Positions 2,030-35,124 of a stretch of 64,000 nt of DNA are shown piece by piece; positions within the stretch are counted from its first letter, which is position 1, and each line of letters begins with the position of its first letter. The stretch comes from a virus. The stretch spans positions 1 to 64,000 of IMG/VR virus record IMGVR_UViG_3300046660_000367, one strand, 5' to 3'. The position numbers and the translations under genes are program-made. Below the pieces are notes generated by a model. It was not told where the DNA came from, searched no databases, and worked only from the letters and a program-made list of their open reading frames with translations.

Positions 2030-2113
2030 GTCGTATCCAGCAAATTTTAACGAACTGGCGGCGTGCACAGCACGCTGCCTGCACTGCTATTTCTATACCA
2101 AAGGGGGCCGCAA

Positions 2114-5056
2114 ATGGGCAACATGGAAGACGAATATAACCGCCTCAAGGGCGGCACCACGCCAGCGCGCCCGGTCCTCTTGGGCGGCAATGGCGCCCCG
2201 CAACCACCCACCGCGCCAGCCACCCAGCCGAGTAGCGCCTTGACGCGCCCGCCCATTCCTGTGCCGGACCCGCGTGCCAACTTGCCGCAGCCAGGCGCAG
2301 GCGTGGCCGACGCCATGCAGCAGCGCGGCACCGCGCCGGCCACGCCTGCAGCACCATCGAACCTGCGCGCCAGCTTGCCGCAGCCAGCCGCTGGCCTGGC
2401 CGATACGATACACGACCGCGCCATGGCCAGCGCGCAGTTTGATACGCCACACGCGGCGCAGCCAGCCCCCGACCTGCGCACGGCCCTGAACCAGCGCAAC
2501 CCGGTCGGCGAGCTGGCCAACGCGCAGTATGACCGCGCCGCGGCCGGGGCGCGCGCGCCAGCGCCCGCTGCCGCGCCTGTGTCCGCGCCGGACCCGCGTG
2601 CTGCCTTTGGCACCCAGCCAGGTCAGGCACTGTCGGAGGCGAGTGCCGCCCGCAGCGGGCTGCCCGCGCCGGCTGCGCCGCCCACGCCGGCAGCATCGGC
2701 AGTTTCGGACCTGCGTGCCAGCCTGCCCCAGCCAGCCGCTGGCCTGAGCGATGCGATGTACGACCGCGCCATGGCCGGCAAGTACAACCCATCGCCCGCG
2801 CCCGAGCCGGGCCTGTCGCCCACCAGGAACAGCATGCGCGCCGCTGCCGAGGCGGCGGCCAACCCGAACAGCGCGCGTGCCGCCGCCATGGCACCGCCGG
2901 GCGCCGACACCGCCGGCATGGCCAACAAGCTGCGCGGCTCAGTCGGACTGGGCGAGATGGGCGCAGCACCAGCGGGCGCAGCGCCGCCACCGGGGGCACC
3001 TGGCGCCATCCGCAGCGCCGCGCAGACGGCCTTCGGCAACGGCGAGCAATGGTCGCAGTTCGGCCAGAAGGCGCGCGCCGGTATCAACGCCGTCGCCAAC
3101 AATCCGGTGGTCAAGCAAGTCGTCAAGCGGGCGCCGCTGATCGGCGCAGTGGCCGGTGGCGCCGAAGCGGTGCATGGGCTGGCCAACAACGACATGGGCC
3201 AGGCCGGTTTGGGCGCGGCCGACGCTGCTGCCAGCCTCGCGCTGGCCTCGCCGGCAGCACCGGCAGCGGCCGTCTACCTGACCGGGCGCGGCGCCTGGGA
3301 GGGCGGCAAGATGCTGGGCAACGCCTTGCCTGAAACCGCGCGGGATTCCATCGGCAGCGGCATCAACAGCGTAGTGCGCGGCGCCGGCAAGCTGTTTGGC
3401 CAGGATTGGGGCGTTGACGACAGTGCCTTGCAGGCCCAGCGCGGCAGCATCGCCGCAGCAGCTACCGCCGCGAGCAAGCCGCCGGCAGCCAAGCCGACTG
3501 CCAAGCCTGCCGGCCCGGTGATGACCGAGGACCAAGCTGACCAGTACAGCCTGCAACAGCAGGCCCGCCAGTCGGCCAAGCCTGCCGCGCCCGCTGCGGC
3601 TCCGACCGGCCCCGTGCCAGGCGACCAGCGGCAACAGGCCATGCTGGATCGCTATTACGCCTTACACAAGGAATCGCGGGAAAGCCCAATTTCGGGCATC
3701 GATTATGGCGGATCGTACAACGGCACGCACATTTCCTACAAGGATGGCAGCGAGGCCGTCATCCCCCATGGCCAGCCACTGCCGTCCGAAGCGCAGCAAT
3801 ACCTTGACCGCTCCTATGAAGTAAGCAACCTGATGAACGGCAGCTGGCAAGCGCCTGCTCCGGCGCCTGGAACTGCCGCTACGCCAGCTGCCGCCGCGCC
3901 AGCCAATCCGAACTTGAGCGAGAACCAGCGCCGCATCCAGTCGAACGCGCAGGAAATGGGGTACGACCCGGCGCGCGCCATGATGATCAGCTCGATTGAA
4001 ACCGGCGGCAAGTTCAACCACGACGCGCAAAACCCGAACAGCAGCGCTTTTGGCCTGTTCCAGATGACCAAGGAAAACCGCGCCGCCTACCCAATGACGG
4101 CGGCGCAGTGGAAAGACCCGGCTGTGCAGGCGCGCGCTGGCATCGACTTTATGATGAAGACCGACGCCGGCCTGACCTCCAGCCTCGGGCGCGCACCGAC
4201 CCCTGCCGAGTCCTACATGGGCCACCTGCTGGGGGTGAAGGGCGCCACCGCGCTGCTCGGTGCCGACCCGAACGCCCCCATCGAGAAGGTGGTGGCCGGC
4301 TTCTCGCCCAAGAACGCCAAGGCCATCGTCAACAACAACGGCATGTCAGGCATGACCGCCGGCCAGGCCATCGGCAAGTGGACCGGCCTGGCGGCGTCGC
4401 ACATGCCCGGCGGCGGTGGCGCTGGCGGCAGCGCCTCGCCCATCGTCCAGCAGGCCCAGGTGGCGGCAGGCGGCATACCCGGCGGCGTCCCCCCCGAGCT
4501 GCGCGAGCAACCCATCTGGGAAATGCGGGGCATGCACAGCACGATACAGATGCCAGATGGTAGCGTGGTGTCCCCATCCATCTACAACGCGGCCATGGCC
4601 AGCGGCGACTTTTACGGCAAGAACAGCCCGTACACCAAATACCGTGACGCGCAGGTGCAGGGCGAAATCTACGGCGTGAACCCGCTCCAGGCGAAGCTGG
4701 ACGAGCAGGCGCTGCAAAACCAGGGTTCCGCGGCGGTGGCCGCCACCACCGGCCAGTACGGCGTGCAGGGCCATACCATCGCCGGCAAGGCGCATGTGGA
4801 TGCGGCCAAGCTCGCCGCCGAGAGCGGAAAACAGAGCTTCATCAACACCGGCGGCGGGGTCGATCCGACCACCTTTGCGCCGCTGCCGCAGCGCGTGTTC
4901 GACACGCAGACCAAGACCTTCGTCGATCCGCCGGCCAAGCCGAAGCCGTCGCAGGCAGCCGCCACCGCGCAGGCACAGGCGGCGATCAAGGCTGGCGGCA
5001 CCAAGGAAGCGGCAAATGCGATCCTGGCCAACTACGGCTACCCACCGATCAACTAG
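2114..5056 (+). CDS. Virion ejection/internal protein with lytic transglycosylase (SLT/lysozyme-like) domain
   Basis: AAGGGGG RBS before ATG 2114; SSIETGG (catalytic Glu) ... SSAFGLFQM ... LGRAPTPAESYMGHLLG at ~3990-4380; Pro/Ala-rich repeats at the N-terminus. Confidence 0.8.
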   Translation: MGNMEDEYNRLKGGTTPARPVLLGGNGAPQPPTAPATQPSSALTRPPIPVPDPRANLPQPGAGVADAMQQRGTAPATPAAPSNLRASLPQPAAGLADTIHDRAMASAQFDTPHAAQPAPDLRTALNQRNPVGELANAQYDRAAAGARAPAPAAAPVSAPDPRAAFGTQPGQALSEASAARSGLPAPAAPPTPAASAVSDLRASLPQPAAGLSDAMYDRAMAGKYNPSPAPEPGLSPTRNSMRAAAEAAANPNSARAAAMAPPGADTAGMANKLRGSVGLGEMGAAPAGAAPPPGAPGAIRSAAQTAFGNGEQWSQFGQKARAGINAVANNPVVKQVVKRAPLIGAVAGGAEAVHGLANNDMGQAGLGAADAAASLALASPAAPAAAVYLTGRGAWEGGKMLGNALPETARDSIGSGINSVVRGAGKLFGQDWGVDDSALQAQRGSIAAAATAASKPPAAKPTAKPAGPVMTEDQADQYSLQQQARQSAKPAAPAAAPTGPVPGDQRQQAMLDRYYALHKESRESPISGIDYGGSYNGTHISYKDGSEAVIPHGQPLPSEAQQYLDRSYEVSNLMNGSWQAPAPAPGTAATPAAAAPANPNLSENQRRIQSNAQEMGYDPARAMMISSIETGGKFNHDAQNPNSSAFGLFQMTKENRAAYPMTAAQWKDPAVQARAGIDFMMKTDAGLTSSLGRAPTPAESYMGHLLGVKGATALLGADPNAPIEKVVAGFSPKNAKAIVNNNGMSGMTAGQAIGKWTGLAASHMPGGGGAGGSASPIVQQAQVAAGGIPGGVPPELREQPIWEMRGMHSTIQMPDGSVVSPSIYNAAMASGDFYGKNSPYTKYRDAQVQGEIYGVNPLQAKLDEQALQNQGSAAVAATTGQYGVQGHTIAGKAHVDAAKLAAESGKQSFINTGGGVDPTTFAPLPQRVFDTQTKTFVDPPAKPKPSQAAATAQAQAAIKAGGTKEAANAILANYGYPPIN
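2271..2778 (+). repeat. Three intragenic repeats RA(N/S)LPQP(G/A)AG(V/L)(A/S)D plus degenerate copies
   Basis: Near-identical DNA at ~2361-2428 and ~2709-2776 (acctgcgYgccagcYtgccScagccagccgctggcctg...gaccgcgccatggcc); weaker copy from ~2271. Confidence 0.85.
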
Positions 5057-5068
5057 AGAGAGCACCCC

Positions 5069-8000
5069 ATGCCAAAGAACACTGACCTGGGCGACTTCGC
5101 CAGCATTGTGCCGGGCGCTGAACCGGACCTCGGCGAATTCGCCACGATCGTGCCGAAGAACCGGCCGTCCATCATCGGTTCGAGCATCGCAGACCTGGGC
5201 CGCTCGCTGAAAACCGGCGTCGAGCAGTTGCCCGGCATGGTCACCGGCCTGGCCGACATCGTGCCGGCGCTCGCCACCGGCACCCGGCCGTTTACCACGG
5301 CAGCCGACTGGCTCGGCGAGCAGACCGGCTTCCAGCCCGGAAAATGGGCCAAGGAGCAGCAGTTTTCCCCCGCTTACAGGCAGAACCAGCAAGAGATTCA
5401 GGATGCGTGGAAGGGTGTCAACGCGGTCTCCGACGACCCGCACGCGAGCAACGCGGACTACCTGCGCAAGCTGGCCGCCGACGCGCCTGGCATCGCCGCC
5501 GAATATGTGAAGCACCCGATGTATTCGCTCAACCAGGTGACCGAATCGCTGCCGTCGATGATCGCCGGCGGCGCCATCGGGCGCGCTGGGGTGGTCGCCG
5601 GGCGCGCGCTGCCGGTCGCGGCCGACGCGGCACTGGGGACGGCCGCCAAAGCTGCGGTGCCGGGCTATCTGGAACGCGCAGTCGGTAACAAGGTCGCCAG
5701 CGAGATCGCCGGCGGTGTCGGTGAAGGCACGGTGCAGGCCGGACAGGCCATGGACCAGTCGGAAGGCAGCGACCAGCGCAAGAATGCGATTGCGGCGCTC
5801 GGCTCGGGTGCGCTTGATGCGCTCATTGCTGGCGGCGCCGGGCATGTGGCGCACAAGCTCGGCTGGGAAACGGCCAATACCGCGATGGCGCAGGGATTCG
5901 ATCACAAGCTCGCCAGCGGCCTGTCGGCGGCCAAGCGCATCGCCGGCGGCGCCGCCTCGGAAGGACTGCTGCAGGAGGTGCCGCAGTCGATGCAGGAACA
6001 GGCCTGGCAGAACTACGCGGACGGCAAGCCGTTGATGCAGGGCGTGGTCCAGCAGGGCGTCGAAGGCGGGATTGCCGGCGCCGTGATGGGCGCCGGCGCC
6101 AACTTGCGCGGCGGCGAGGCGCCGCCACCACCCGGCGGCAGCACGGCCACGCCGCCGGCCAACAATCCGCCCGGTGGCAGCCAGGGCACCCCGCCAGCGA
6201 CCCCGCCCGGCCCGCTGACGCAAGCGGCCAGCCTGGTCCCCGGCGCGCGCCAGCAGTTCCCGTTCGGCTCCATTGACCTCGCGCAGAAGCAGGCCAACAG
6301 CTTCACCAGCGATTTCGGCATCCCGCATCAGGCGGTGCCGCACCCGAGCGTGCCGGGCAAGTTCGCCGCCGTGCCGGTGACCGTAGACGGCGCTGACGCC
6401 CTGTTCGTCAAGGAAGCCGAGCGGCAGGGGGTCGATCCGGCCGCCGCGCAGCTGGCCACCCATGGCGATGGTGGCGCCAGCCTGATGACCGACCTGCTGG
6501 CCCAGCACCCGGAGCTGACGGCGCAGCAGTGGAGCGACCCGGCCACGCGCGCGCAACTGGCCGCCGCCTACCTCAAACAAGACATCGACGCGCTGGGCGA
6601 GGCGCTGGGGCGTGCACCGACCCCGGCCGAAACCTACATCGGCCGCCAGCTCGGCACCACCACGGCAGCCGAACTGCTGAACGTGCCAGCGTCCGAGCGC
6701 GGCATGCCGGTCTCGTCCATCATCAGCGACCCCGCCGTCGAAGACCGCCTTGGCCTGACCGGCATGCCGGTCGGCTTTGTCATCGACCACTTGACGCAGC
6801 AGGCCGACACCACGCTGGCCACCTTGAAGGGGAACGGCAATGCCAACCTGGGAACCGAAGTACCTGCCGCTGGAGGCGCCACTACTGGATATGATGGTGG
6901 CGCAGCTGTGGGTGACGCAGCAGGAAGTGGAACTGTGGCTGGACGACCTGCTGCCGGAACCGGCGCTGTCGCAGCTGGAACACCGGCTGCACCTGGCGCG
7001 GCTGAAACTGGACCTGACGGTGCCGGTGCAGTAGCGCCGCGCGTGCAAGTCGGCCCGACCGAGGACGGCTTCCAGAATGGCAACGCCCAGCGCCACCGCG
7101 ACACCGCCGACGCGCTGGGCCTGACCGACACCATCGAGCGCCTGTTCGGCGACGGCCTGACGGTCAACCAGGTGGTCGGCCAGATTCAGGACAAGGCGCC
7201 CGGCGTGGTGCCGGCCGACCTGCCGAACCTGGTCAACGGCGTGCGCGGCACGCTCGGCATCCCGGCGCCGATCTCGCCCGAGGGCAAGGGCGCGTTTGAC
7301 GCCTGGCGCGCAGAGTACAAGGCGCGCGGGCAGCAGACCAAACAGCAGGCGGCACAGCAGCAGGACGACCTGTTCCCTGACGTGCCGGACTTCCCGGCCA
7401 CGCCGACCCCGACAGGCACCACCACGTCCGCAGAATCGGCAGCAGCCGATACCCCTGCAACCCCTGATACCCAAGCGCTGCCGGCCTGGCACGATTCGCC
7501 GTTCGCCCCGCGCATCCACGCCATGCTGGATAGCCTGAAAGAAGCCGGCGACACCGATATGGCGCGCTCGATCGAGGCCGGCGTCGAGATGGACGCCAAG
7601 CAGGGCCGCTTGAACGAACAGAACACCGCCTACCGCGAGGAAAAGGCGCGCATCGCCGTCAACACCAAGGCCGGCGAGGGCAAGCCGCCGGTGCCGGTCG
7701 CCATCGCGCCGGAAACCTACGACAGCCTGGCCGGGAAGATCAACACGATTCCCGCCTTGCCACGCGCCATCGGCGAGGCCGCGGTCGCGCGCTGGAACGA
7801 GATCGCGCCCAAGCTGGCCGCGCTCGGCTTCAAGGATGGCGAGGTCGATGCGCGCCACGCGCCCGAGGCACGCGAGCTGCAAAAGCAGCTCAAGGACATC
7901 AGCAGCGCCTTGAATGGCCTGGCGCCGCGCCGCTATCAGGTTGAGCGCGAACACAAGAACGTCAACCCGGATGCCATCGAGCGCGAGGAAAACTTCGCCA

Positions 8001-11000
8001 CCACCGTCCTTGGCATCGATACGCGCGCCCATCCAGGCGTCAATACTGACCACCGCATCACCCTCGGCCAGGGGGTGCAGACACCGACAGGCACCACTAC
8101 GCCCGCGAAAGAGCAAATCGACCTGTCGGACCTGATCGCGCAGTCCACGGCTGCCGGCACCAATGACGCCGGCGAGGCGCTGTTTGAGAACCAGCGCGGG
8201 ACCTTCCGCGTGCGTAAGGACCGCAAGGACCAGCCTGACGGCTACGCCGACTTCGGCGGCGACCTCGCTCCCACCGCCGCAGCACCGGCAGATGCGCGGC
8301 TGGAGTATGCGCGCACTGCCCTGCACGCGCACCTCGGCGCGGCTGGCGAGCTGTACCAGCTCGATGGTGTGCAGCATACCAAAGCGCGCCAGGATGTCAT
8401 GAGTGCGCTGATGGGCACGCCGGTAGAGAAGAAAGAGGCCAGCGTGGACGCGCTGCGCGCGGAACTGTATCGCCGCATCGGTATTGTCAAGGGCAACGCG
8501 CTGGCGAAAGAAATGGTGTTCCAGCAGTGGTACAAGGATGGCGGGCTGGTCAATGTGCCGCAGCAGGGCGGCCACAGCGAGCAGTACGACAACTACCGCA
8601 AGGCCATCGAGGCGGGCCAGGCCAGCCAGGGCATGGCCGAGCAGATCGCCGCCGATGAACGCCTGAATGACGGCGAGGACGGCGAGCTGCAGGACTTGAT
8701 CGAGGCACACGCCAAAGGTAAATCTGACGCCGCGCACGCCGCTGTCGTCAGTGATAACGGGCTGGGCAAACCGGCCAAGATCGATCATGCCCGCTTGACC
8801 TTTGCTGGTGCCAGTTCTGGCTTCACCGTCAGCGATGACCTCAAAGCGCGTGTGCAGCAAGCGTTGCGCGAGCGCCCTGACGCATACAAGACTGGCTTTT
8901 ACAGCCAGAACAATACCCGCTTGAAATTGCCGGCGACTAAACACACTACCAATGAAACGGGCGGTCAGTTCCAGGTGAAGGATGACGGCAGCGTGATGCT
9001 GTTGGGGGATGACGGCTACGGCTGGTATTCCACCATGAGTCAGAAGACCGTCACGCGCACCTTGACCGACTGGCTCAAGAATATGGGTGCGGAGTCGGGC
9101 AAACTCGACAACGGCACCGCGCCGGAACACGCCCGCAACGAGGGCAAGCCGCTTGACCCTAACAACAAGTTCGTGCCGTCTGACAACGGCCCGGTCAATG
9201 AGCTGGCGCCGGTCGATGCAGGCCTGGTGCCGCTGGACATGAGCGTGGACGAGTTTGCCTCGATCACCAACGAGTTCGCCGCGCTGTTCGCTGCGCCGGA
9301 CACCTACGTGCAAACCGAGAAGCGGGTTGACCCCGCCACGGTGCTGCATGCCCCCGAGCCGACACCAGCCGGCGAAGGCAAGTGGACCATGGCGCCGTCC
9401 AAGGCGACCCTGGCCGCGCTCAAGGAGGTCGAGAACGCCCCGGCGCAGCCGCTCATCACCATGGTGGAAGACACCGATGCGCGCAGCACCAAGGAGGGCA
9501 AGCGCCACTTCCGCATCACCGCCAACTACACCAACCGCTATGACGCCGCGCCGATGACTCAGGGCGCCGTGATGGTCGGCGAGCAAGGTGAGGACAATGT
9601 TTCGCGTGACTCGGGCCGGGTCGGCACCAAGCAGGGGCTGGCGGGCGGGGTTGCCGAAATGAAGGCGATGTGGCTGGAGCTGGAATCGGCCATCCTGGAC
9701 CAGGACAAGTGGATCGACCACGCCACCGAGCAGGCCGAAAACAGCAAACTCCGCCAGCAAAACAACCAGAAGATCATCCTGTCGCTGTTCGACTACACCG
9801 GCGAGTGGGGCCAGCCGTGGGCTGACGCCGGCTACAACGTCATTCCCATCGACATTCAGAACGGCATCGACGTGCACGACCTGAACGCCGAGTACCTGTA
9901 CGATGAAATGGGCGTCGAGGGCGACATTCACGGCATGCTCATTGCCGTCCCCTGCACCGACTTCGCGGTGGCCGGCGCCAAGCATTTCGCCGCCAAGGAC
10001 GCCGACGGCCGCACCGAGTCGAGCAAGGAACTGGTCAAGGCGTCCTTGTCGCTGGTCGAGGAATTGCGGCCGAAATTTTGGGCGCTGGAAAACCCGGTCA
10101 GCCGCATCGAAAGCCTGACCGGCCTGCCACCGGCGCGCATGAGTTTTAACCCAAACCACTTCGGCCATGCGTATACCAAGAAGACCATGCTGTGGGGGAA
10201 TTTCCAGACCGATCTGCCGCTCTCGCCGGTCGATCCGGTCCTGGGTAGCAAAATGCACCAGAAGTTCGGCGGCAGCAGCCAGGAAACCAAGAACGCCCGT
10301 TCGGAAACCCCGCGTGGTTTCGCCGCGGCCTTCTTCATGGCCAACAACTACGCCGACCTGACGCCCGAGCAGCGCCTGACCGGCGACTACCCGGAAGCGT
10401 CGGGCGCGATCGCCACCGCCTTGAAAGCCGGCGTACCAGAAGACCGCGTGCGCGAGCTGATGGAGCAGACTTACGAAAACTACGACTCCGAAGCGGCCCG
10501 CAACGCCCTGATCAAGGAAGTGGCCGCGCTGAAAGAGGGCACCGGCGACTATGCCGCTGACGAGGATGCGGACGAGGACGGGCCGAGCGCGCTATCGGCC
10601 AGTGTGCCGGGCACGGTCGATGCCCCGCTCAAGTTCCACAGCGGCATGAGCCGCCCCGGCGACTTCAGCAAGCTGTTTGCCGGGCACCGCAATGTCGGAA
10701 TCGAGGTCGGCGAGCTGTCGAAGGTGTCGGTCCCGAAGATCGCCGCCGCGATGGCCAACACCAATAGCCACCTGTTCGTCGATACCGGCGCCTTCCCGAT
10801 CTACCAGAGCAACAAGCTGGCGTTCCTCGATGCGCTGAAAAAGCAGGACTTCTCCGACTGGAAGAACGAGGAAATGCTGTCGTTTGACCAGATTCTGGAG
10901 CGCTACAAGTCGATCCAGGACGCGATCAACGAGGCCGACGACAGCGGGTTCGCCATCGAGCGCGCCTATTTCGTCATGCCTGACGTGGTCGGCCGCCAGG

Positions 11001-14000
11001 CTGAATCGCTGGCCCTGGTGGGCCAGTACCAGGGCGCCATCAACGGTTTCGGCGACCGCGCGATCCTGCCGCTGCAAGCGGGTGAGCTGACGCTGACCCA
11101 GGCCTACGAGAGCGCAATGATCTCGCTGCGGAAGGACCCGGACCATGATTTCGGCCCGATCGTCGGTATCCCGAGCAACAAGGAGGCCGCGCCCAACGAC
11201 CAGCTGACCGACCTGCTGAAAAAACACGGCGACCGCATCGCCGGTGTGCACGTCCTCGGCCTGTTCGCCGACACGATGCTGGCGCCGCGGCTGGACGCGA
11301 TCCGCGCCGCCGGCTTTGAGGGCCATGTCAGCGCCGACGCCAACCGGCTGCGCTCGCTGATGTACGGCACACGCACGCGCGGCGATGCCATGGATATACT
11401 GCTGGGCCAGTCGGCGCCGGAAAGCGGGGCCAAGAACGGCGGTGCCCCGGCGCCAGCCGACACCAAGCCTGGCCTGAAAAAGATGCAGGACGCCAAGGCC
11501 GAGAAGGACGCGGCCAAGGATGCGCCTGCCGAGGCGGGCCAGCACAGCGGCACCGTCGGCATCGACACGCTAATCGAGCGCGCCGAAGCACGCCTGGCGG
11601 AACAACGCGCGCTGCAAAACGCTGCCGTCGAAGACGGCAATGGCAACGAATGGGTGTACGACAAGAAAATTGCCGCCATCGAGGCCCAACTGGCCGATTA
11701 CCAGCGCGCACGCGCCGAGCTGCTGGCCGAAGACAAGCCGGGCCTGAAAAAGATGCAGGAGGCGAAGGCCGCCAAGGATGCCGCGACACTGCCCGAGACG
11801 GCTGCCGGGCAACAAGGTTATCGTTCGGCGCTGGACGGCTATCGCATGTCCCCACCGAACAACATCAGGACCAACATCGACAAGGCCGAATGGGAAAAGG
11901 GCTGGCTGGCTGGGGAAGCGCGCCGCGATGCCCTCATGGAAGGGGCGGAACCTGTCGTCGTGGGAGGGCGCCTTGCCTCGCCGACCTTGAATTTGCAGCA
12001 TGAACTGGTGTGGCGCGACGAGCGTAGCGGTAAGGATTATGTGTCAATGGATGCGGCCAGGGACGGACTGACCGCCGCCGATAAGCAAGATAAGGATTTT
12101 GAGGCAGCATTGCCAGCCAGCGAAGTCGTCGCCGTGTATCACACCAAAGGCGGCAAGCTGGCGATGCAGATCAAGCGCAGCATGGGCCGCGATGGCCAGC
12201 CGCGCTATGCCTACACCGGGCAATACGGCGCTGGCAGCGGCCATGGCGAAGCGGACATGCGCACCTTCGTCCGGCAGGCCAAGGCGGCGCATCCGGGCAT
12301 GAAACTGGTGTCGGGGCAGGAGTTTGGAGAGGCCGCGGTGCCGGCCGCCATTGACCTTGATGCGCTGCTGGACGACCAACTGAAAGCCGCCCTGTCGGAC
12401 CTGGGCGACGTGCTGGGCGATGTGTTCGGCGGCGTCAAGAAGATGACCGGGCCGCAGCGCACCGCTGGCGATCTGCTGCCGGCGCTGTCAAAGGTGGTCG
12501 AGCTACTGATTCGCAAGGGTCTGCGCTCGTTCCAGCAGGCCATCGGCACGGCCGCGCGCGCCATGCGCGGCAACGACAAGACCGCGCCGTTCGTGGACCA
12601 GATCACCCCGCGCCAGTGGAAGGCGGCCTATAACGCCGTGGCCGAATTGCATGAAGGCACCGACAGCGAGGACAGCGTCAACGCCCTCAGCGCCGACGAG
12701 GTGACGGCATTGACCGGCGTGGCGCCAGCTGCCTCGGCCGAGCGCAACGAACCAGCTGCGCCACCGGCCTCCCGCCGCAAAGCACCGGGACAGGCACGCC
12801 TGCGCCAAGACTATGGTGTCAAGCACATCGACGGCTACACCGCGACCGACGAATTCCCGCACGGCCCGCCGGGCGACATTCCGAGCGGCGGCGTCAAGGA
12901 AGCCTTCCGCAAGGACGCGATGGCGTACCTGAAGGACATCGCTGGCGTCCTGCTCGACCATGGCTTTACCAACTTCACCAACAGCAGCGGCAAGGCCATG
13001 AAGGCCTATTCGTGGAACCCAGGCGGCCCGGCCGTGGCGGGCGACGCCATGCTGTCAATGGTGCACGAAGGCGCCGGCAAGGGCATTTATGTCAACATTG
13101 CCGGCGACAGCATGGTCGGCAAGCCGACGGCGTCGGGCGTGAGCGTGATGATGCGCGTCACGACCAAAGAGAATCCGACCAGCAGCGGCATGAACCTGTG
13201 GCCGGGAGCCGATCTAAGCGGGCAGGAGCTGGCCGACAAGATCATCAAACTGGTCACTGGCGCACCTGCGCGCACCGAAAAGGGTGATAATCAAGACAAC
13301 GCGAAGGACGACAATGGAACTCGACCTGAAATTTCTAACCTGGGTACGCCGGGAATCGGCGAAGCTGGCGGAGAAGTGGCCGCTGGGGGGCGAGCGGGAA
13401 CGCGACCTGCTGGCCCATTGGGCGAGAAACCGGCCGCAGATGATGGCGCGGCTGGAGGCAATGAAGGTGGCGCCGCAGCTGGCCCACGTCCTGCTGGACC
13501 GGGAGTATCAGGCATTCCAGCAGAACCTGCGGGCGGGAATGGGGCCGACGGACGCAACGGAACAGGCGGAACAGGACTGGCTGATGCTGGAACCGGAGTC
13601 GGAGGACCAGCCGTTGGACCTGCCCGAGCCAATTACCACATCGGAGACCCCGAGCAGCTGATCGGCGGCACCCCGAAGGTCCGTTTCGCCAAGAACCGCG
13701 CCGCCATCGAGGCCTACCGCTCGATCACCGAGGAAGGGCGCGCGCCGGTCAAGGAAGACCTTGACGCGATGGCCGCCTACATCGGCTGGGGATCGTTCGG
13801 CCAGGAACTGTTCAAGGGAACCTGGGAGCGTGCGGCGCCGAAAGAGGGCTGGGCCAGCGAAGACGCCTGGCTGCGTGGCCACCTCGGGCAGCAGGAATGG
13901 GAAAGCGCCCAGCGCTCGATCATCAACGCCCACTACACCGACCCCGTCACCGTCAAGACCATGTGGGACATGGTGCGCGCGCTCGGCTTCACTGGCGGGC

Positions 14001-17000
14001 GCGTGCTGGAGCCGTCGATGGGGATTGGCAATTTCTTCGCCATGATGCCGCTCGACCTGGCCGAAAAGAGCGAGCTGACCGGCATCGAAATGGATACCCT
14101 GTCGGGCGGCATGGCCAAGGAGCTGTACCCGAACGCGAATATCCAGATAAAACCTTATCAGGATAGCAAGACGGTCGATGGCTTCTACGATCTGGTGATC
14201 GGCAACTGGCCGTTCGCCAAGGACGGCCCGAGCGACCGTCGCTACATGAAGCTCAATCCGTCCCTGCACGACTTCTTTTTCCTCAAGGCGCTTGACCAGA
14301 CCCGCGCCGGCGGGCTGGTGGTGGGCATCACCAGCGCCGGCACGATGGACAAGAAGGGCCGCGCCACGCGCATGGAAATTGCCAAGAAGGCCGAATTGGT
14401 GGCCGCCTTCCGCCTGCCCGCCGGGGCCTTCGAGAAGTATGCCGGCACCTTTGTGACGACCGACCTGATCGTGCTGCGCAAGCGCGCCGAGCCGGTCGCC
14501 GGCAGCGCATCATGGGTCGAGCTGGGCGAAACCCGCGTCCCGGCCGGCGAAACCATCGAAGTCAACAGCTATTTCCTGCAACACCCCGATCACGTCCTCG
14601 GCACCCTCAATTTTGGCCGTGGCCTGAACGGGCGCCCGGCAATGCTGGTCGAGCGCCCGGCCGACCTGATGGCGCGGCTGGCACAATTGCCCGGCAAGAT
14701 GCCGCCCGACACCTACTCGCCTGCGCAAGGGCGCAAGCAGGTCAGCTACCTGACCAACAACACCGCCGACCGCGAGGGCAGCGTGACACTGGCCGACGGC
14801 AAGCTGTACGTGGTGCGCGGCGAGCGGCTGATGCCGCTGGCCGACGTGACCAGCTACCAGGTCAAGAGCAAGATCGAGACCGCCGCGCGCGAGGCGCAGA
14901 TCGGCAAGCTGATCGCCATGCGCAATGCGTATGGCGCGCTGGTGACGGCCGAGCGCGCCGCCGACAGCAACACCGAGGCGCTGCGCAAGGACCTGCACCG
15001 CCAATACCTGGCGTTCGTCAAAGCCTACGGTTCGTTGGAAGCGTCCGACGGCATGCGCATCCTGCGCAACGTGAAAGACCCGTTCTACTCCGCGCTGGCG
15101 TCGCTGGAAATCGACGGCAAGCCGGCGCGCATCCTGAAAGAGGCGACGCTGCGCGGGCGCAAGAAGCTGGCCAACCCGAGCGTGCGTGACGCCTTCGTGA
15201 TGGCGCGCAACGAAAGCATGGACGTTGACCTGAGCACCATTGCCAAACTATCCAACAAGACCGAAGCGGAAGTGGCGAGCGAGCTGGAAGGGGCCGATGC
15301 GATCTTCAAGACCCCGGCCGGCAACTATGAAGTGGCCGATATCTACCTGTCGGGCAACGTGCGGCGCAAACTGCGCGAAGCGCAGGATGCACAGGCCAAC
15401 GCGCCGGCCGGCCAGGTCAGCGCCGATTTCGCGCGCAACATCGCCGCGCTGGAAAAGGTGCTGCCCAAGACCGTGCCGTACTTCAAGATCGAGGCCAAGC
15501 TGGGTGCGCCGTGGATCAAGGCCGAGCATTACCAGGGCTATGTCGCCCGCCTGCTGGGCCTCACGCGCGACGAGGACAAGGCGGCCGTCGAAGTGCGCAT
15601 GGTCAACGGCTCGTGGAAGGTCAAGTTTACCGACCACAGCCTGAACAACCGGCCGGAAGCGACGACGCAGTGGGGCACCTTCCACATGGCGGCGCGGCTC
15701 GACCGGATGCTGACGGCGGCGATGAACAACCGCAGCATCACCGTCAAGTACAAGGACGACGACGGCAACATGCAGGTGGACGAGGCGGCCACCAAGGAAG
15801 TGAGCGAAAAGCTGGTCAAGCTGCGCGAGGAATTCGGCAATTGGGTGTGGAAGGACGCCGAGCGCCGCGTCTGGCTCGAAGAAAACTACAACGAGGTGAT
15901 GAACGCCATCGCCACGCCCAACTTTGACGGCTCCTTCCTCGACTTCAACGGCATGACCCTGCGCCGGGGCGATGACCCGTTCTCGCTGCGCCAGCACCAG
16001 GTCGATGCCATCTGGCGCGGGCTGGTCAACGGCCGCGGCCTGTACGCCCACGAAGTCGGCACCGGCAAAACCTACACGATGGCCGGCCTGGCGGTCGAGT
16101 CGCGCCGCTACGGGCTGGCGAAAAAGCCGCTGATCTTCGCCCACAACGCCAACAGCGCGTCGGTGGCCAAGGAATTCAACGACATGTACCCGGCAGCGCG
16201 GGTGCTGTACCTCGACAACCTGGCGCCGGCCGACCTCGACGTGCGCATGCGCCAGATCGCCAACGACGATTGGGACGCGGTAGTGGTGCCCCATTCGCTC
16301 ATCAGCCGCTTCGCGCTGACTGCACAGACGCTCAATGAACTGGCCGCCGAAGACATCGCGGCGATGGAGCAGGAGGCGATGGACGCCGCCGAAGACGACA
16401 ACGTCCACTTGACGCTGGCGATGATGGACGACGAAAAGGAGATGAAGAAGGTGCGCAGCGCCACCGCCAAGGACCTGGTCAGGGCGCGCAACAAGATCAT
16501 CAAGAGCATGCAGGACATGGCTCTCAAGTCGTCGAAAGAAGACGCGGTGTCGTTCGAGGACCTGGGCGTGGACATGGTGATCGTGGACGAGGCCCACGAA
16601 TTCAAGAAGCCCCCGGTCGCCACCAAGATGAAGATGCGCGGCCTGAACACCGGCACCTCGAACATGTCGATCGCGCTGCGCTTCCTGACCGATTACGTCA
16701 AGCGCGAGAACAACGGGCGCGGCATCCACCTGTTTACCGGCACGCCGATCACCAATACCCTCACCGAGTTGTACAACATGATGCGCTACGTCATGGATGA
16801 CGTGATGGCGCGCGACGGCATCAAGGACTGGGACAGCTGGTTCAACACCTTCGCCGACTCGACCACCGACGTGGAACTGACGGCGGCCGGTGAGTACGAG
16901 GCGGTCACGCGCCTGGCCAGCTTCGTCAACACGGCCGAACTGCGCCGCATTTCCGGCGAGTTCATGGATATTGTCTTCGCCGACGACATGCCCGAATTCA

Positions 17001-20000
17001 AGCCGCGCCAGACCGCATCGGGCAAGATTTTGACCGACGAGCTGACCGACGTCGAGCGCGAGGAACTGCTGAACGGACGCAGCGAAAACCCGGTCGGCCG
17101 GCCCTACAAGCAAATCATCGTCGATGTGGCGCCGATGGGGCTTGAACAGAAGCAAATGCTGGACAACTTCAAGCGGCTGGCCAAGGAATTCAAGGAGGCC
17201 AGCAAGCAGCGGCGCCGCGAAATCGTGCAGAGCGGCCACCCGGCGAACCCGGTTCTGGTCGAAACCGGCGCGGCCAACGCCGGCATGGACCCGCGCCTGG
17301 TGGATATGAACGCCAAGGACGAGCCAAACAGCAAGGTCAACCGCGTTGCCCGCAATGTCGCCGCGCTGTACCACGAAGACGCGCGTGCCACCCAGGTGGT
17401 GTTCCTCGAACGTGGCTTTACCGACGAAGGCACCAAGACCAAGAGCAACGGCGACGGCACCAAGACCGTTACCAAGGTGCGCAAATTCAACCTGGTCAAG
17501 GACATGGTGGCCAAGATGGTCGCCGCCGGGGTCAAGGAAAGCGAAATCGCCGTGGTTGACGGCTCGGTCAGCAAGGAAAAGCGCAAGGAGATTGCTGACG
17601 CGATGAACAAGTCGCAAATCCGCGTCGTCATCGGTCTGACCAAGACGCTCGGGGTGGGCGTGAACATGCAGGAAAACCTGCGCGCGATGCACCACGTCGA
17701 TGCGCCGTGGATGCCGGGCGAGCTGGAACAGCGCAACGGGCGCGGCTGGCGTCAGGGCAACAAGTGGAACACCGTGCGTGAGTACCGCTACATCACCGAG
17801 CGGCTTGACGGGCGGCGCTGGCAGGTTCTGGCCGTGAAGGACCGTTTCATCAAGCTGTTCCTCAAGGCCGATGAAAACACCCGCATCATCGACGGTGATG
17901 CGGTCGAAATGGAAGAAGGCGATGGCGGCGATCTGGCCGCGACGCTGTCCGAGGCGGCGGGCGACCCGCGCGTGCTGGTGCGCGAAAAGCTCAAGGCCGA
18001 TATCGAGAAGCTGGAAAACCGCGAACGCCAGCATACCTATGCGCTCACTGACGCCGCCGAAATGATGCGCCGCCTGGCGCAGGCAAATGCGGGAATGACG
18101 GAGACGCTGCCGAAGTTGCAAGCCGACTCGGCGCAGTACGAGGCCGGTCGCGGCAACTTCAGCGCGACCATCGGGGGCGAGCAGTACACCGAGCGCGGCG
18201 CTGCCGATGAGGCGATTGACGCCATTATTGAGGGGCTGGACAAGAACGTGGGGCAGCGTCAGATCGGCACCATGCACGGCTTCAAGCTGACGCTCCATCG
18301 CGGCATTGGTGGCTTCTACGTCGATATCCGTGGCCAGCATCAATTTGAGGCATGGACGCCCAGCGTGTCGTCGATCGAGTCGGCGATGCGCAAGCTGGCC
18401 AAGACGGCTGCCGAGTATCAGCAGAAGATCGAAGACAACAAGGCCAGTATCGGGCGCATGGCCGAAATGCAGAAGGAACCGTTCGGGCAGGCGGCGCTGC
18501 TGGAGAAGAAGCGCAAGATGCTGGCCGACCTGATTGCCGACCTGGCGCGCAACCCGGAGCCGGCCCCGGCCTGGCTGCGCCATGGTGCGCCGGCCAATAC
18601 CGCGATCTACGTCAATGGCCAGCAGCGCGTGGTGGAAGGGCACAAGAGCGACAAGGACGGGTATTTCATCGTCACCGAAGAAGGCGACGTGCCTTACCTC
18701 GATGCCACCGACGCGGCTGGCATGCCGATCTATGATCCGGTCGATGGCGATGTGCGCGACGAACGGCCGCCGCTCGATCTGACCGGCACGCCGGCCGAGC
18801 CGGCACGCCTGCAACGGCGCGAAGACGACCGCAAACGGCGCGAAAGCGACCCGCTATTTGCGCGTGCCGAAAATGACGAAGCGGGGGCCGTCGCGCAGAA
18901 CGGCAAAACGCCGATCATCAGCGACACCGATTTCGCCGCCGTCATCGACCGCGTCAAGGCCGCCTTCGCCAAGCGCGCCGGTGGCGCCCTCACCGTCAGC
19001 ATCAAGCCAGTGCGGGGGATGGACGACCTGCCGCCGGCCTTGCAAGAGGCAGCGCGCCGCCAGCAGCTTGACCTTGGCAAAGGCGTGTATTTTGAGAACA
19101 CCGTATATGTGGTGCAGCAGGCCCATAGCACGGCCGAGGAAGTGGAAAAGACGATATTCCATGAATTATACGGCCATGCCGCCACCGCCACCCTGTTTGG
19201 CGACGAGTGGGTGGCCAAGCAGAATGCACTATTGAAAGCCATCGGCGGCGGCGCGGGCCTGTACCGGATCGCAGCCGCCAACCAGATCAACCTGCACGCC
19301 TACGCCGATGGCCTGGCAGCCGACACCACCCTGACCGACGCGCAGCGCAGCGCATCCATGATGGACGAGTTGCTGGCGCACATGGCCGGGAAGAAGACTG
19401 TGCTGCGCCAGAAGATCAACGAGTTCATCGGTGCGGTGCGCGCCTGGCTGCGCGCGCACGGTTTCGCCAAGCTGGCCGAGTACGGCAACACCGACCTGGC
19501 GCACCTGCTGGCGGAGGGGCGCCGGAGCCTGGCCGCGAAAGCCACCGGCAAGGCTGGCCCGGCGATGCCGGTGTTCGCCCGCGACCCCGACCATGCGCCG
19601 GTGTTCTACTCGACGCTGACGCGCCAGATCGACAAGACGGTGACGAAATCGGCCTCGCCGCTGCACTGGGCCGAGACCATCATGGGCACCTCGTTTGCGC
19701 AGCAAGGCGTCAAGCAGGATGAAATCCAGTGGTCCGGCGTGCTGGACTGGCTGGCGATGCAGCAAGAGGCCGGCGTGAAAAAGGTGGACAAGGCGCAGCT
19801 GCTCGACTACCTGGCCGAGAACGGCGTGCGCGTAAGCGAAACCATGCAGGGCGAACCGGCGCCGGCCAGCGAGGAAGGTTTGGCACAGCGCAAGGCCGTG
19901 TTCGACCAGTACCAGCCGCAGATCGACGCGCTGCGCCAGCGCGCCGAGGACTACAAGTCGCCCAGCCGGGAAATGGATGAGGCGCGCGACGAGTGGGCGG

Positions 20001-34086: not shown

Positions 34087-34413
34087 GGTGCCCCACTTGT
34101 ACGTGAAAAGTTGTTCGTTGACATAAAGCAAACCATACACACAAAATTGAATGAAAGACACTGCGGAAAATACCAATTCCGGTATTAAAATTACAATACT
34201 CACGGGACAGGAATGATGCAGCCAAGCAAAACGCCCGGTATTGTACAGGGCATTGTGATTTTGTGTCGTAGTTGCCTAGTTGCTATTTGGTGACAAAAGT
34301 CGGCCGACCGTGCGCCGCCAGCGCCCGCGCGCGTTGCGCCTGCGCGAAGTTGCAAAAAAGACAACATCAGTAACCCAAGGAACCCCATTGCCAAAGCAAC
34401 AGCACAAGAAGAC

Positions 34414-35060: not shown

Positions 35061-35124
35061 CGTGAGAAATGTTACATCAAAAAACCTATCGTTATGATTG
35101 ACACTGCTGATGTGATGTTGTTTA

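What the first reader, a model, noticed from the sequence alone, without database searches (positions are those of the whole stretch)
10628..11365. TGT/DpdA-like transglycosylase domain inside an injected polyvalent protein
Seen: LFVDTGAF, VMPDVVG, LPLQAG, VHVLGL and SADAN in order. This series matches the TIM-barrel tRNA-guanine transglycosylase/DpdA superfamily (DSGxF, xxD, QG, HxxG, SxD). No que/7-deazaguanine synthesis genes are in the window. Inference: a virion-delivered base-exchange or glycosylase activity that modifies incoming DNA using host preQ0/preQ1, or attacks host DNA or tRNA.
Basis: partly seen in the sequence, partly recalled or inferred. Interest (0 to 1): 0.75.

Follow-up and report, generated by a model that had tools for sequence, protein, structure and literature searches.

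The report
DpdA-like base-exchange domain in giant phage protein
A 6,419-residue multi-enzyme protein of an uncultured phage contains an apparently intact domain from an uncatalogued family related to the enzymes that swap guanine in DNA or tRNA for 7-deazaguanine, so the phage may rewrite DNA bases using host-made precursors, though no activity has been tested.

Summary
All five motifs occur in order in residues 1854-2099 of a 6,419-aa ORF (window 5069-24328, + strand). That ORF is a DarB-like polyvalent protein at the end of the phage's structural operon.

The domain (residues ~1848-2119, window 10610-11425) has no reported Pfam, PHROG, NCBIfam or PDB sequence match. It belongs to a family with 277 cluster representatives. 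Most sit inside giant phage or plasmid proteins; the rest are stand-alone proteins of 270-390 aa.

- **Fold:** AlphaFold gives a confident (beta/alpha)8 barrel (pLDDT 94.6). Archaeosine TGT, DpdA, Cap10 and bacterial TGT all rank in the top 11 of 48,161 PDB representatives. For a stand-alone relative, DpdA, ArcTGT and TGT are the top three.
- **Sequence:** Profile-profile alignment links the family to phage DpdA1 (89.6%, E 1.9e-6) and DpdA4/DUF6610 (80-89%). Decoys score 0.8% or less. The near-invariant Asp residues after strands 3, 4 and 8 align with DpdA1's.
- **Differences:** There is no TGT zinc subdomain. QueC and QueD are absent from this complete genome, and no preQ0 pathway turned up in 19 other viral records carrying the family.
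- **Context:** Recurrent fusion partners are DNA-modifying enzymes.

Superfamily membership is well supported. DNA base exchange with host preQ0/preQ1 is inferred. This scan noted the same kind of domain earlier on other DNA.

The parts
5069..24328 (+). 6,419-aa polyvalent (DarB-like) protein ORF that contains the domain
   Evidence: ORF list. Pfam ART-PolyVal, LPD39, SNF2 and Helicase_C. PHROG DarB-like antirestriction, 3.9e-242.
10610..11425 (+). DpdA/TGT-like (beta/alpha)8 barrel domain, residues 1848-2119, flanked by low-complexity linkers
10640..10645 (+). S1858-G1859, conserved after beta1 (family motif F-x-S-G-x-S/N-R)
   Evidence: 248/258 and 251/258 conserved. Aligns with the P-G-M-N-R stretch of DpdA1.
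10772..10795 (+). Beta3 motif LFVDTGAF. D1905 (nt 10781-10783) is the predicted general acid/base, equivalent to the DSGGF/DSGAF Asp of TGT and DpdA.
   Evidence: D in 257/258. Aligns to FLDSGAF of DpdA1 and to LTDSGGF of E. coli Tgt.
10973..10999 (+). Beta4 motif VMPDVVGRQ. D1972 (nt 10982-10984) is the predicted base-binding Asp; Q1977 is also conserved.
   Evidence: D 258/258, P 255/258, Q 250/258. Aligns to LDGIGDP of DpdA1 and GGDY of DpdA4.
11066..11083 (+). Beta5 motif LPLQAG (P2001, Q2003, G2005)
   Evidence: Q 243/258, G 254/258. Aligns to CFHAGE of DpdA1 and VVPHG of DpdA4. Correspondence to Q203 of TGT is by strand position only.
11165..11173 (+). Beta6 motif G-I-P (G2033, P2035)
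   Evidence: P 257/258, G 230/258.
11246..11263 (+). Beta7 motif VHVLGL (H2061, L2063, G2064)
   Evidence: H 258/258, L 257/258, G 258/258. Aligns to VHGFG of DpdA1 and HLLGG of DpdA4.
11330..11344 (+). Beta8 motif SADAN. D2090 (nt 11336-11338) is the predicted nucleophile.
   Evidence: D 255/258. Aligns to SCDSS of DpdA1 and SIDGN of DpdA4.
9746..10366 (+). C5-cytosine DNA methyltransferase domain (residues 1560-1766), directly upstream of the barrel
   Evidence: PHROG 757 DNA methyltransferase, 4e-45. The same pairing recurs in other proteins and as neighbouring genes.
13661..17758 (+). DarB-like N6-adenine methyltransferase plus SNF2 helicase module
   Evidence: PHROG 10089 and 11801. Pfam ResIII, SNF2-rel_dom and Helicase_C.
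19160..19177 (+). HELYGH zincin-type motif, a candidate processing peptidase of the polyvalent protein
   Evidence: Motif located; no Pfam hit. The processing role is inferred from Iyer et al. 2017 (PMC5512222).
21275..22255 (+). ART-PolyVal and LPD39 domains
   Evidence: Pfam 6.9e-20 and 2.6e-32.
2063..5056 (+). Upstream 997-aa protein with a lytic transglycosylase / baseplate-hub-like region, the last recognisable virion-type gene before the polyvalent gene
   Evidence: PHROG 4067 transglycosylase and PHROG 196 baseplate hub.

Best explanation
Residues ~1848-2119 form a catalytically intact, minimal TIM-barrel enzyme. It belongs to an uncatalogued branch of the deazaguanine transglycosylase superfamily (TGT, bacterial DpdA, phage DpdA1-4, Cap10, TIM-B) and is closest by sequence profile to phage DpdA1 and DpdA4.

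**Proposed mechanism (inferred).** By analogy with TGT and DpdA, D2090 after beta8 attacks C1' of a flipped-out guanine nucleotide in DNA. D1905 in the DSGAF-type loop acts as general acid/base. D1972 and Q2003 hold the purine. A 7-deazaguanine base (preQ0 or preQ1) from the host's queuosine pathway then replaces guanine.

**Proposed biological role (inferred).** The domain sits in one polypeptide with a C5-cytosine methylase and a DarB-like N6-methylase/helicase. It would therefore be a third DNA-marking activity of an anti-restriction protein. That protein is made with the virion proteins and is probably packaged. The domain could act on progeny DNA before packaging, on incoming DNA after ejection, or on both.

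**Confidence by layer.**
- Superfamily membership and an intact active site: about 0.85.
- DNA as the substrate: about 0.6.
- Guanine to 7-deazaguanine exchange using host precursors: about 0.4.
For: **Fold**
- AF2 model: pLDDT 94.6, pTM 0.91, eight beta-alpha units.
- TGT entries fill 49 of the top 50 rows of the second-look search.
- In BFVD, the named phage hits are mostly 'queuine tRNA-ribosyltransferase' (DpdA-type) proteins.

**Sequence**
- hhalign of the 258-sequence family against phage 9g DpdA1 homologues: 89.6%, E 1.9e-6, 194 columns.
- The motifs of strands 1, 3, 4, 5, 7 and 8 pair up, including all three Asp residues.
- Against DpdA4/DUF6610: 80-89%, E 1e-5 to 2e-6.
- Reversed or column-shuffled decoys score 0.8% or less.
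- One family member hits Pfam DUF6610 directly, E 0.0026.

**Conservation**
- The three Asp, Q, H and G residues are near-invariant across 258 sequences.

**DNA context**
- C5-MTase co-occurs in 16 of 86 long proteins and lies within about 60 residues of the domain in five, including the shorter proteins P0039 and P0058; Pfam confirms it in P0012.
- It is also the only recurrent neighbouring gene (4 of 19 viral loci).
- Other fusions: N6-MTase (P0071, P0079); Mom (P0110, P0201); the YaaA/DpdC-like DUF6884 (PMC11701544).

**Precedent**
- 9g DpdA alone, expressed in E. coli, inserts dPreQ0 into plasmid DNA from host-made preQ0. Singleton DpdA phages are known (PMC6884629).

**Virion link**
- The gene ends the terminase, portal, head and structural-protein operon.
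Against: - Pfam reported no match for the domain (search to E 10), so none to TGT (PF01702), DpdA (PF23859), DUF6610 or Beta_protein. There is also no PDB sequence match.
- hhalign against a bacterial TGT profile is not significant (2.2%). The same set-up also fails to link DpdA1 or DpdA4 to TGT (9.8% and 0.4%), so this negative carries little weight.
- The C-terminal zinc/hairpin subdomain that positions the nucleic acid in TGT and bacterial DpdA is absent.
- QueC and QueD are absent from this complete genome and were not found in 19 other viral records carrying the family, apart from one weak QueC-type hit. Most characterised phage DpdAs travel with a preQ0 pathway.
- Several members are fused to an inorganic pyrophosphatase, which base exchange does not explain.
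- No experiment exists for any family member. Packaging of this protein is inferred from gene order and from homology to DarB-type proteins.
Confidence: 0.5

Rival explanations
1. Same superfamily and DNA substrate, but different chemistry or base. The domain could be a hydrolytic DNA glycosylase. Alternatively, it could be a transglycosylase that inserts or removes a base other than a 7-deazaguanine, giving a new DNA modification or erasing a host mark.
For: - The family is not linked to QueC or QueD in any of 20 viral records.
- The beta6 loop is G-I-P, not the G-G-L-A-V-G-E loop that reads the 7-substituent in TGT.
- The family is a distinct branch with its own invariant H2061 and Q1977.
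- Hutinet et al. left open whether singleton DpdAs have diverged in function (PMC6884629).
Against: - The Asp/Asp/Gln/Asp set that binds and exchanges guanine-type bases in TGT is retained.
- A glycosylase that leaves abasic sites in the element's own DNA would be harmful.
- The fused partners are DNA-marking enzymes (methylases, Mom, a DpdC-like domain), not nucleases.
Confidence: 0.2
2. Same superfamily, but the substrate is not DNA. The domain could act on host tRNA, as TGT does. It could act on a protein, as Cap10 does when it attaches a deazaguanine to a CD-NTase. Or it could act on a free nucleotide or immune signal, as proposed for TIM-B regulators. In each case the effect would be to disarm a host defence.
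For: - The protein-language-model atlas places a 'beta protein family' cluster second (0.93). TIM-B/PF14350 was recently unified with this superfamily as a nucleobase-transfer regulator (preprint 10.64898/2026.10.19.760177).
- InPase fusions hint at nucleotide chemistry.
- The nucleic-acid-positioning C-terminal subdomain is missing.
Against: - The closest profile matches are the DNA-acting DpdA1 and DpdA4.
- The tightest fusions and the only recurrent neighbour are DNA-modifying enzymes.
- Pfam reported no match, so none to PF14350.
Confidence: 0.2
3. An unrelated TIM-barrel enzyme, for example an aldolase-like or sugar-acting one, whose motifs resemble TGT/DpdA by convergence.
For: - TIM barrels generally cross-match.
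Against: - All four TGT-superfamily representatives rank in the top 11 of 48,161, and the top three for a second family member are DpdA, ArcTGT and TGT.
- Profile-profile matches to DpdA1 and DpdA4 pair six strand motifs and far exceed decoys.
- There is no set of His/Glu metal ligands as in class II aldolases; only one His is conserved.
- The fusion context is DNA modification.
Confidence: 0.07
4. A non-catalytic structural or binding module.
For: Polyvalent proteins do carry degenerate domains. One example is a transglycosylase-like stretch at residues 473-558 of this protein.
Against: Near-invariance of three acidic residues, Gln and His at the barrel's catalytic face across 258 sequences, including free-standing proteins.
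Confidence: 0.03

Closest known systems
Phage DpdA1 (Enterobacteria phage 9g gp03 type), a DNA guanine/preQ0 transglycosylase
   Same: - Best profile-profile match: 89.6%, E 1.9e-6, 194 columns.
- Near-identical F-[VL]-D-S-G-A-F loop.
- Asp residues after beta4 and beta8 align, as does the V-H-x-[LF]-G motif on beta7.
- Similar small size.
- Neither has TGT's CxCxxC...H zinc motif.
- A role in phage anti-restriction is established for DpdA1 (PMC6884629).
   Different: - DpdA1 is a free-standing protein of ~306-317 aa, encoded next to FolE, QueD, QueE and QueC/Gat-QueC.
- This domain is embedded in a 6,419-aa protein in a genome without QueC or QueD.
- Beta5 has Q where DpdA1 has H.
- No tblastn match to any of 50,697 deposited phage genomes.
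DpdA4 / DUF6610 (PF20314; Halovirus HVTV-1 gp69)
   Same: - hhalign 80-89%, E 1e-5 to 2e-6, over beta4-beta8. The H-L-L-G-G and S-I-D-G-N motifs match V-H-x-L-G and S-A-D-A-N.
- One family member hits the Pfam model directly at E 0.0026.
   Different: - DpdA4 is found in archaeal viruses next to a full preQ1 pathway, or fused to GNAT.
- Its N-terminal half differs: F-I-D-M-D-W in place of F-V-D-S-G-A-F.
- Its activity is itself only predicted (bioRxiv 10.1101/2023.04.13.536721).
Bacterial DpdA (S. Montevideo, PDB 7UI4) and tRNA-guanine transglycosylases (TGT/ArcTGT)
   Same: - Conserved Asp residues follow the third, fourth and eighth barrel strands. This matches the order of the D89, D143 and D264 motifs in the E. 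coli Tgt sequence.
- The Q after beta5 corresponds to the Q-G motif of TGT.
   Different: - No zinc subdomain, no N-terminal beta-sheet lid and no DpdA-specific insertions.
- No DpdB-type ATPase partner was looked for or seen.
- No significant HMM or profile match to TGT.
Polyvalent proteins (Iyer et al. 2017) and phage P1 DarB
   Same: - A giant multi-domain protein with ART-PolyVal, LPD39, a zincin motif and a DarB-like methylase-helicase.
- The gene lies at the end of the virion module.
   Different: A text search of that paper for 'TIM barrel', 'glycosylase' and 'base-exchange' found nothing, and its three uses of 'transglycosylase' refer to peptidoglycan enzymes. This domain is therefore an addition to the known repertoire.

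Membership tests
Deazaguanine transglycosylase superfamily (TGT / DpdA / Cap10 / TIM-B) | (beta/alpha)8 barrel most similar to TGT/DpdA structures | tested here: met
   - pLDDT 94.6 barrel.
- Second family member: DpdA 15.0, ArcTGT 13.8, TGT 12.9 as the top three.
- For the window model, the margin over aldolases is only about 1-2 Z.
Deazaguanine transglycosylase superfamily (TGT / DpdA / Cap10 / TIM-B) | General acid/base Asp in a D-S-G-[GA]-F loop after beta3 | tested here: met
   D1905 lies in F-V-D-T-G-A-F and is conserved in 257/258. It aligns to the DSGAF loop of DpdA1 and the DSGGF loop of E. coli Tgt.
Deazaguanine transglycosylase superfamily (TGT / DpdA / Cap10 / TIM-B) | Base-binding Asp after beta4 | tested here: met
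   D1972 is conserved in 258/258. It aligns to the Asp of L-D-G-I-G-D in DpdA1.
Deazaguanine transglycosylase superfamily (TGT / DpdA / Cap10 / TIM-B) | Nucleophile Asp after beta8, superposable on D280 of TGT and D256 of DpdA | tested here: inconclusive
   D2090 is conserved in 255/258, sits at the end of beta8 and aligns to the Asp of S-C-D-S-S in DpdA1 and S-I-D-G-N in DpdA4. A coordinate-level superposition on 7UI4 or 1Q2R could not be run with these tools.
Deazaguanine transglycosylase superfamily (TGT / DpdA / Cap10 / TIM-B) | C-terminal zinc-binding (CxCxxC...H) hairpin/helix subdomain that positions the macromolecular substrate | tested here: not met
   - No conserved Cys and only one conserved His in 258 sequences.
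- The model shows two short helices after beta8 and then a low-complexity linker.
- Phage DpdA1 also lacks the CxCxxC...H motif, so this feature does not define the phage branch.
Deazaguanine transglycosylase superfamily (TGT / DpdA / Cap10 / TIM-B) | Significant match to the curated family models (PF01702 TGT, PF23859 DpdA, PF20314 DUF6610, PF14350 Beta_protein) | tested here: not met
   Pfam reported no family for the window domain when searched to E 10. Among 56 family members scanned at E 0.01 or below, one weak DUF6610 hit appeared (E 0.0026).
Phage DpdA (7-deazaguanine DNA insertases, DpdA1-4) | Profile-level homology to an established DpdA subfamily | tested here: met
   89.6% (E 1.9e-6) to DpdA1 and 80-89% to DpdA4; decoys 0.8% or less. 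These probabilities are moderate, not decisive.
Phage DpdA (7-deazaguanine DNA insertases, DpdA1-4) | Genomic linkage to preQ0/preQ1 synthesis genes (FolE, QueD, QueE, QueC, QueF) | tested here: not met
   - QueC: found in 1 of 20 viral records, as a weak partial hit in a 186-kb genome.
- QueD: found in 0 of 20.
- Both are absent from this complete genome.
- Singleton DpdAs are known (PMC6884629), so this lowers membership but does not exclude it.
Phage DpdA (7-deazaguanine DNA insertases, DpdA1-4) | Guanine / 7-deazaguanine exchange in DNA | not testable with these tools
   Needs LC-MS/MS of DNA nucleosides or a [14C]guanine exchange assay.
Polyvalent proteins of phages and conjugative elements (Iyer et al. 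2017) | Giant multi-domain protein carrying signature domains (ART-PolyVal, LPDs, DarB-type MTase-helicase, zincin peptidase), encoded with the virion or transfer genes | tested here: met
   - ART-PolyVal 6.9e-20 and LPD39 2.6e-32.
- DarB-like 3.9e-242.
- HELYGH motif.
- The gene follows the terminase, portal, head and structural genes.
- Physical packaging was not tested.

The most novel reading that the evidence does not exclude
Phages and conjugative plasmids deliver, inside a giant polyvalent protein, a stripped-down DpdA-type enzyme. It rewrites bases in the incoming or progeny DNA without any dedicated biosynthetic pathway. It does this either by drawing on the host's queuosine precursors or by installing a base not yet known in DNA. 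In that case 'inject-and-rewrite' base exchange would be a widespread and so far unrecognised anti-restriction strategy.
Probability: 0.3. Interest if true: 0.85.

Novelty: new variant of a known kind. Interest (0 to 1): 0.62.

Why it matters
7-Deazaguanine DNA modification is currently recognised in genomes by a DpdA gene, usually next to a preQ0 pathway.

A large branch of the same superfamily has no curated model (277 cluster representatives at 50% identity). About half of the near-full-length representatives sit inside proteins of more than 1,000 residues from phages and plasmids. The others are fused or adjacent to C5- and N6-methylases, Mom and a DpdC-like domain. Base-exchange chemistry may therefore be a common part of the entry-stage anti-restriction toolkit that current annotation misses.

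This would add a domain type to the polyvalent-protein repertoire. It raises the testable question of whether host queuosine precursors are used to protect foreign DNA. It also points to cultured carriers (Pseudomonas, Cupriavidus and Shewanella plasmids) in which the activity can be assayed.

Tried and rejected
- **Family and PDB sequence searches (domain alone).** Pfam, PHROG, NCBIfam and PDB searches, by single sequence and by profile, gave nothing meaningful.
- **Deposited phages.** tblastn of the window domain and of two stand-alone members against 50,697 phage genomes found no match. No cultured phage carrier was identified.
- **Window DNA.** megablast of window 1-25000 against the phages collection found no match.
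- Neighbourhoods were read from viral contigs instead.
- **Too-divergent query.** The search for related loci with the divergent alignment A1 failed for lack of a conserved stretch. It was rerun with subfamily alignment A4.
- **DpdA sample.** A search for PF23859 (DpdA) in 201 genomes of one phylum, meant to collect sequences, found none, and the control rang nowhere. This is uninformative.
- **Bacterial TGT profile.** hhalign of the family against a 36-sequence bacterial TGT profile gave 2.2%, with only the DSGGF loop sensibly aligned. The set-up is too insensitive to count as evidence against: DpdA4 against TGT gave 0.4% and DpdA1 against TGT 9.8%.
- **Conserved operon.** A search around stand-alone homologues in 19 viral loci found only a C5-methylase recurring, in 4 loci. 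There is no conserved partner such as DpdB.
- **Simple ORF calling.** Greedy longest-ORF calling was unreliable at this G+C content and was replaced by all-ORF clustering.
- **Aldolase reading.** A class II aldolase or sugar-epimerase reading was considered because of close Z and Foldseek scores. It was rejected on motif, profile and context grounds.
- **TIM-B.** Relation to TIM-B/PF14350 was not tested beyond the null Pfam scan and an atlas lead.

Full report
**Setting.**
- The window is the first 64 kb of a complete 98,275-bp uncultured virus genome with 127-bp direct terminal repeats and ~65% G+C.
- The finding lies in a single 6,419-aa ORF at 5069-24328 on the + strand.
- The C-terminal half of that ORF carries Pfam SNF2, Helicase_C, ART-PolyVal and LPD39.
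- PHROGs add a C5 DNA methyltransferase at residues 1560-1766 and a very strong 'DarB-like antirestriction' match, 3.9e-242.
- This is a polyvalent protein in the sense of Iyer et al. 2017 (PMC5512222).
- All on the + strand, the order is: terminase (74.2 kb), portal (77.7 kb), major head protein (83.9 kb), further structural proteins (to 93.6 kb), two paralogous PHROG-10969 proteins, a 997-aa lytic-transglycosylase/hub-like protein (2063-5056), and then the giant gene.
- The terminal repeats make this one continuous late module. Virion association is therefore plausible, but it is inferred from gene order and family, not shown.

**The observation.**
- The five motifs are present in order at nt 10772-11344.
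- The domain runs from about residue 1848 to 2119 (nt 10610-11425) and is bounded on both sides by acidic or Ala/Pro/Lys-rich linkers.
- It has no Pfam match even at E 10, no PHROG or meaningful NCBIfam match, and no PDB sequence match.

**A real, large, unnamed family.**
- An exhaustive phmmer search of 1.84 billion cluster representatives found 277 proteins at E 1e-3 or better, 109 of them at 1e-10 or better.
- Among 141 listed representatives with near-full-length matches, 74 are longer than 1,000 aa. In these the domain sits at widely varying positions. Another 19 are 451-1,000 aa and 48 are 450 aa or shorter.
- A profile search added about 170 stand-alone proteins of ~320-350 aa. Those that carry a source name are 'hypothetical', and only one has a precomputed Pfam domain.
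- The family occurs on 42 sequenced plasmids, namely Pseudomonas megaplasmids and Cupriavidus, Shewanella and Microvirga plasmids. One is a 2,206-aa LPD1 polyvalent protein encoded about 2 kb upstream of a traW conjugal-transfer gene.
- It also occurs on at least 21 IMG/VR viral contigs and in a few MAGs.
- None of 50,697 deposited phage genomes has a tblastn match.
- Across 258 aligned domains the following are invariant or nearly so: S-G after beta1, G on beta2, F-V-D-S-G-A-F, V-x-P-D-x-V-G-x-Q, I-V-P-x-Q-x-G, G-I-P, H-x-L-G, the Asp of S-A-D-A-N, and two Arg residues.

**Fold.**
- With a 56-sequence alignment, AlphaFold2 gives pLDDT 94.6 and pTM 0.91, with eight alternating strand-helix units.
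- Each conserved motif sits at the C-terminal end of a strand, which is the catalytic face of a TIM barrel.
- Foldseek against the PDB ties TGT with sugar epimerases (E ~1e-5, TM ~0.5), so on its own it does not discriminate.
- In the second-look search, TGT entries take 49 of the top 50 places, with the alignment spanning the whole barrel.
- In the viral structure library, named matches after the family's own member are mostly phage 'queuine tRNA-ribosyltransferase' proteins.

**Residue-level homology.**
- I built a 258-sequence family alignment and compared it with profiles of established subfamilies.
- Against 120 homologues of phage 9g DpdA1, hhalign gives 89.6% probability and E 1.9e-6 over 194 columns. 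The pairings are:

| Strand | This family | DpdA1 |
|---|---|---|
| beta1 | F-x-S-G-M-S-R | Y-x-P-G-M-N-R |
| beta3 | F-V-D-S-G-A-F | F-L-D-S-G-A-F |
| beta4 | P-D-V-V-G-D-Q | L-D-G-I-G-D-P |
| beta5 | P-x-Q-x-G-E | C-F-H-A-G-E |
| beta7 | V-H-x-L-G | V-H-G-F-G |
| beta8 | S-A-D-A-N | S-C-D-S-S |

- 9g DpdA1 is the enzyme shown to insert preQ0 into DNA (PMC6884629).
- Against DpdA4/DUF6610 (Halovirus HVTV-1 gp69 homologues) the probability is 80-89%, E 1e-5 to 2e-6.
- Reversed and column-shuffled decoys reach at most 0.8%.
- Against a bacterial TGT profile the score is insignificant (2.2%), although the DSGGF loop is the part that aligns. In the same set-up DpdA1 against TGT gives 9.8% and DpdA4 against TGT gives 0.4%. 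The set-up cannot see across the superfamily, so this negative is uninformative.
- By strand position, D1905, D1972, Q2003 and D2090 correspond to E. coli Tgt D89, D143, Q187 and D264 (sequence). They also correspond to DpdA D95, D130 and D256, the first and last of which are required for guanine exchange (PMC10164549).
- I could not run a coordinate superposition, so this last equivalence rests on alignment and topology.

**What is missing.**
- There is no CxCxxC...H zinc subdomain or C-terminal hairpin. Phage DpdA1 lacks that motif too.
- No QueC or QueD exists in this complete genome. In 19 other viral records carrying the family, 9 of them at least 90% complete, the only hit is one weak partial QueC-type match.

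**Context that bears on the substrate.**
- Around stand-alone genes in 19 viral loci, the only recurrent neighbour is a C5-cytosine DNA methylase, in 4 loci.
- In this window the domain directly follows such a methylase domain.
- 16 of 86 long homologues carry the same methylase type, and in five it lies within about 60 residues of the domain, including the 633- and 726-aa proteins P0039 and P0058. Pfam confirms the methylase in P0012.
- Other fusions:
  - Eco57I-type N6-methylase (P0071, P0079).
  - The Mu Mom DNA-modification family (P0110, and the 497-aa P0201).
  - DUF6884 in a Cupriavidus plasmid protein. DUF6884 is related to YaaA (PF03883), the Pfam family to which DpdC is assigned (PMC11701544).
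- Fusions to a polyvalent-type inorganic pyrophosphatase also recur. Base exchange does not explain these.

**Interpretation.**
- Shown: the domain is real, conserved and confidently a TIM barrel. It belongs to the TGT/DpdA superfamily on structural and profile evidence, and it keeps the acidic triad.
- Inferred: it exchanges a base in DNA. The base is a host-made 7-deazaguanine. This protects the element's DNA. The protein is packaged.
- Precedent: 9g DpdA alone in E. coli writes dPreQ0 into plasmid DNA from the host pool, and 'singleton' DpdA phages mostly infect queuosine-proficient hosts.
- Rivals that cannot be excluded are a different base or hydrolytic chemistry, and a non-DNA substrate as for Cap10 or the newly proposed TIM-B regulators.

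**Novelty.**
- A text search of the polyvalent-protein survey found no mention of a TIM barrel, glycosylase or base-exchange domain.
- A full-text search for DpdA together with 'polyvalent' listed four of six matching papers. The one I opened used 'polyvalent' in an unrelated sense, and no listed title or abstract concerns such a domain.
- Earlier notes of this scan (e1-6003825 and e1-6003790) describe the same kind of domain in ~7,200-aa proteins on other DNA and named DpdA1 as closest. I tested that claim independently here and it holds.
- I rate this as a new variant of a known kind: an uncatalogued branch of a known enzyme superfamily in a new architectural and genomic context.

Noticed in passing
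window 44-2029 and genome 95711-98032 (L068:13711-16029): Two paralogous large proteins (661 and 773 aa) both match PHROG 10969, of unknown function, at ~1e-95. They flank the genome ends, just upstream of the transglycosylase and polyvalent genes.
   Followed up: partly
window 2063-5056, and residues 473-558 of the giant ORF (about nt 6485-6742): The 997-aa upstream protein has a lytic transglycosylase / baseplate-hub-like region (PHROGs 4067, 196, 22520). A weak match to the same PHROG 22520 recurs inside the polyvalent protein, consistent with a degenerate second copy.
   Followed up: partly
window 19160-19177: A HELYGH zincin-type motif sits in the polyvalent protein with no Pfam match. 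It is a candidate for the processing metallopeptidase expected in polyvalent proteins.
   Followed up: no
window 34001-36000: G+C drops sharply to 0.54 against ~0.65 elsewhere. This lies close to where the sign of the AT skew changes between the oppositely oriented gene blocks.
   Followed up: no
proteins P0082, P0116 (and 3 of 56 members of alignment A2): The DpdA-like domain is repeatedly fused to the polyvalent-type inorganic pyrophosphatase (InPase, PF18823). Base exchange releases no pyrophosphate, so this pairing is unexplained.
   Followed up: partly
proteins P0282-P0286 (homologues of HVTV-1 gp69): DUF6610/DpdA4 domains fused to GNAT acetyltransferases. This matches the GNAT-TGT pairs described for BREX-related capture systems (PMC12839542).
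   Followed up: no
stand-alone subfamily (alignment A4, model m0b2e0a5a26ef): Stand-alone members carry a beta-hairpin insertion after beta3. They also have a conserved G-R-x-N-G-x-G-G-x-P-R-x-L-T stretch and long C-terminal helices, all absent from the polyvalent-embedded version. These may replace the missing substrate-positioning subdomain.
   Followed up: partly
L002 (P. aeruginosa DN1 megaplasmid, NZ_CP018048.1 302236-314874): On Pseudomonas megaplasmids the stand-alone homologue lies among small hypothetical genes. A ribonucleotide reductase beta subunit and a 736-aa PAPS-reductase-family (PP-loop) protein lie within a few kb.
   Followed up: no
window 61644-63803: A 719-aa protein has a Laminin_G_3 / concanavalin-like domain and matches baseplate-wedge or tail-fibre PHROGs. 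It is a likely receptor-binding protein.
   Followed up: no
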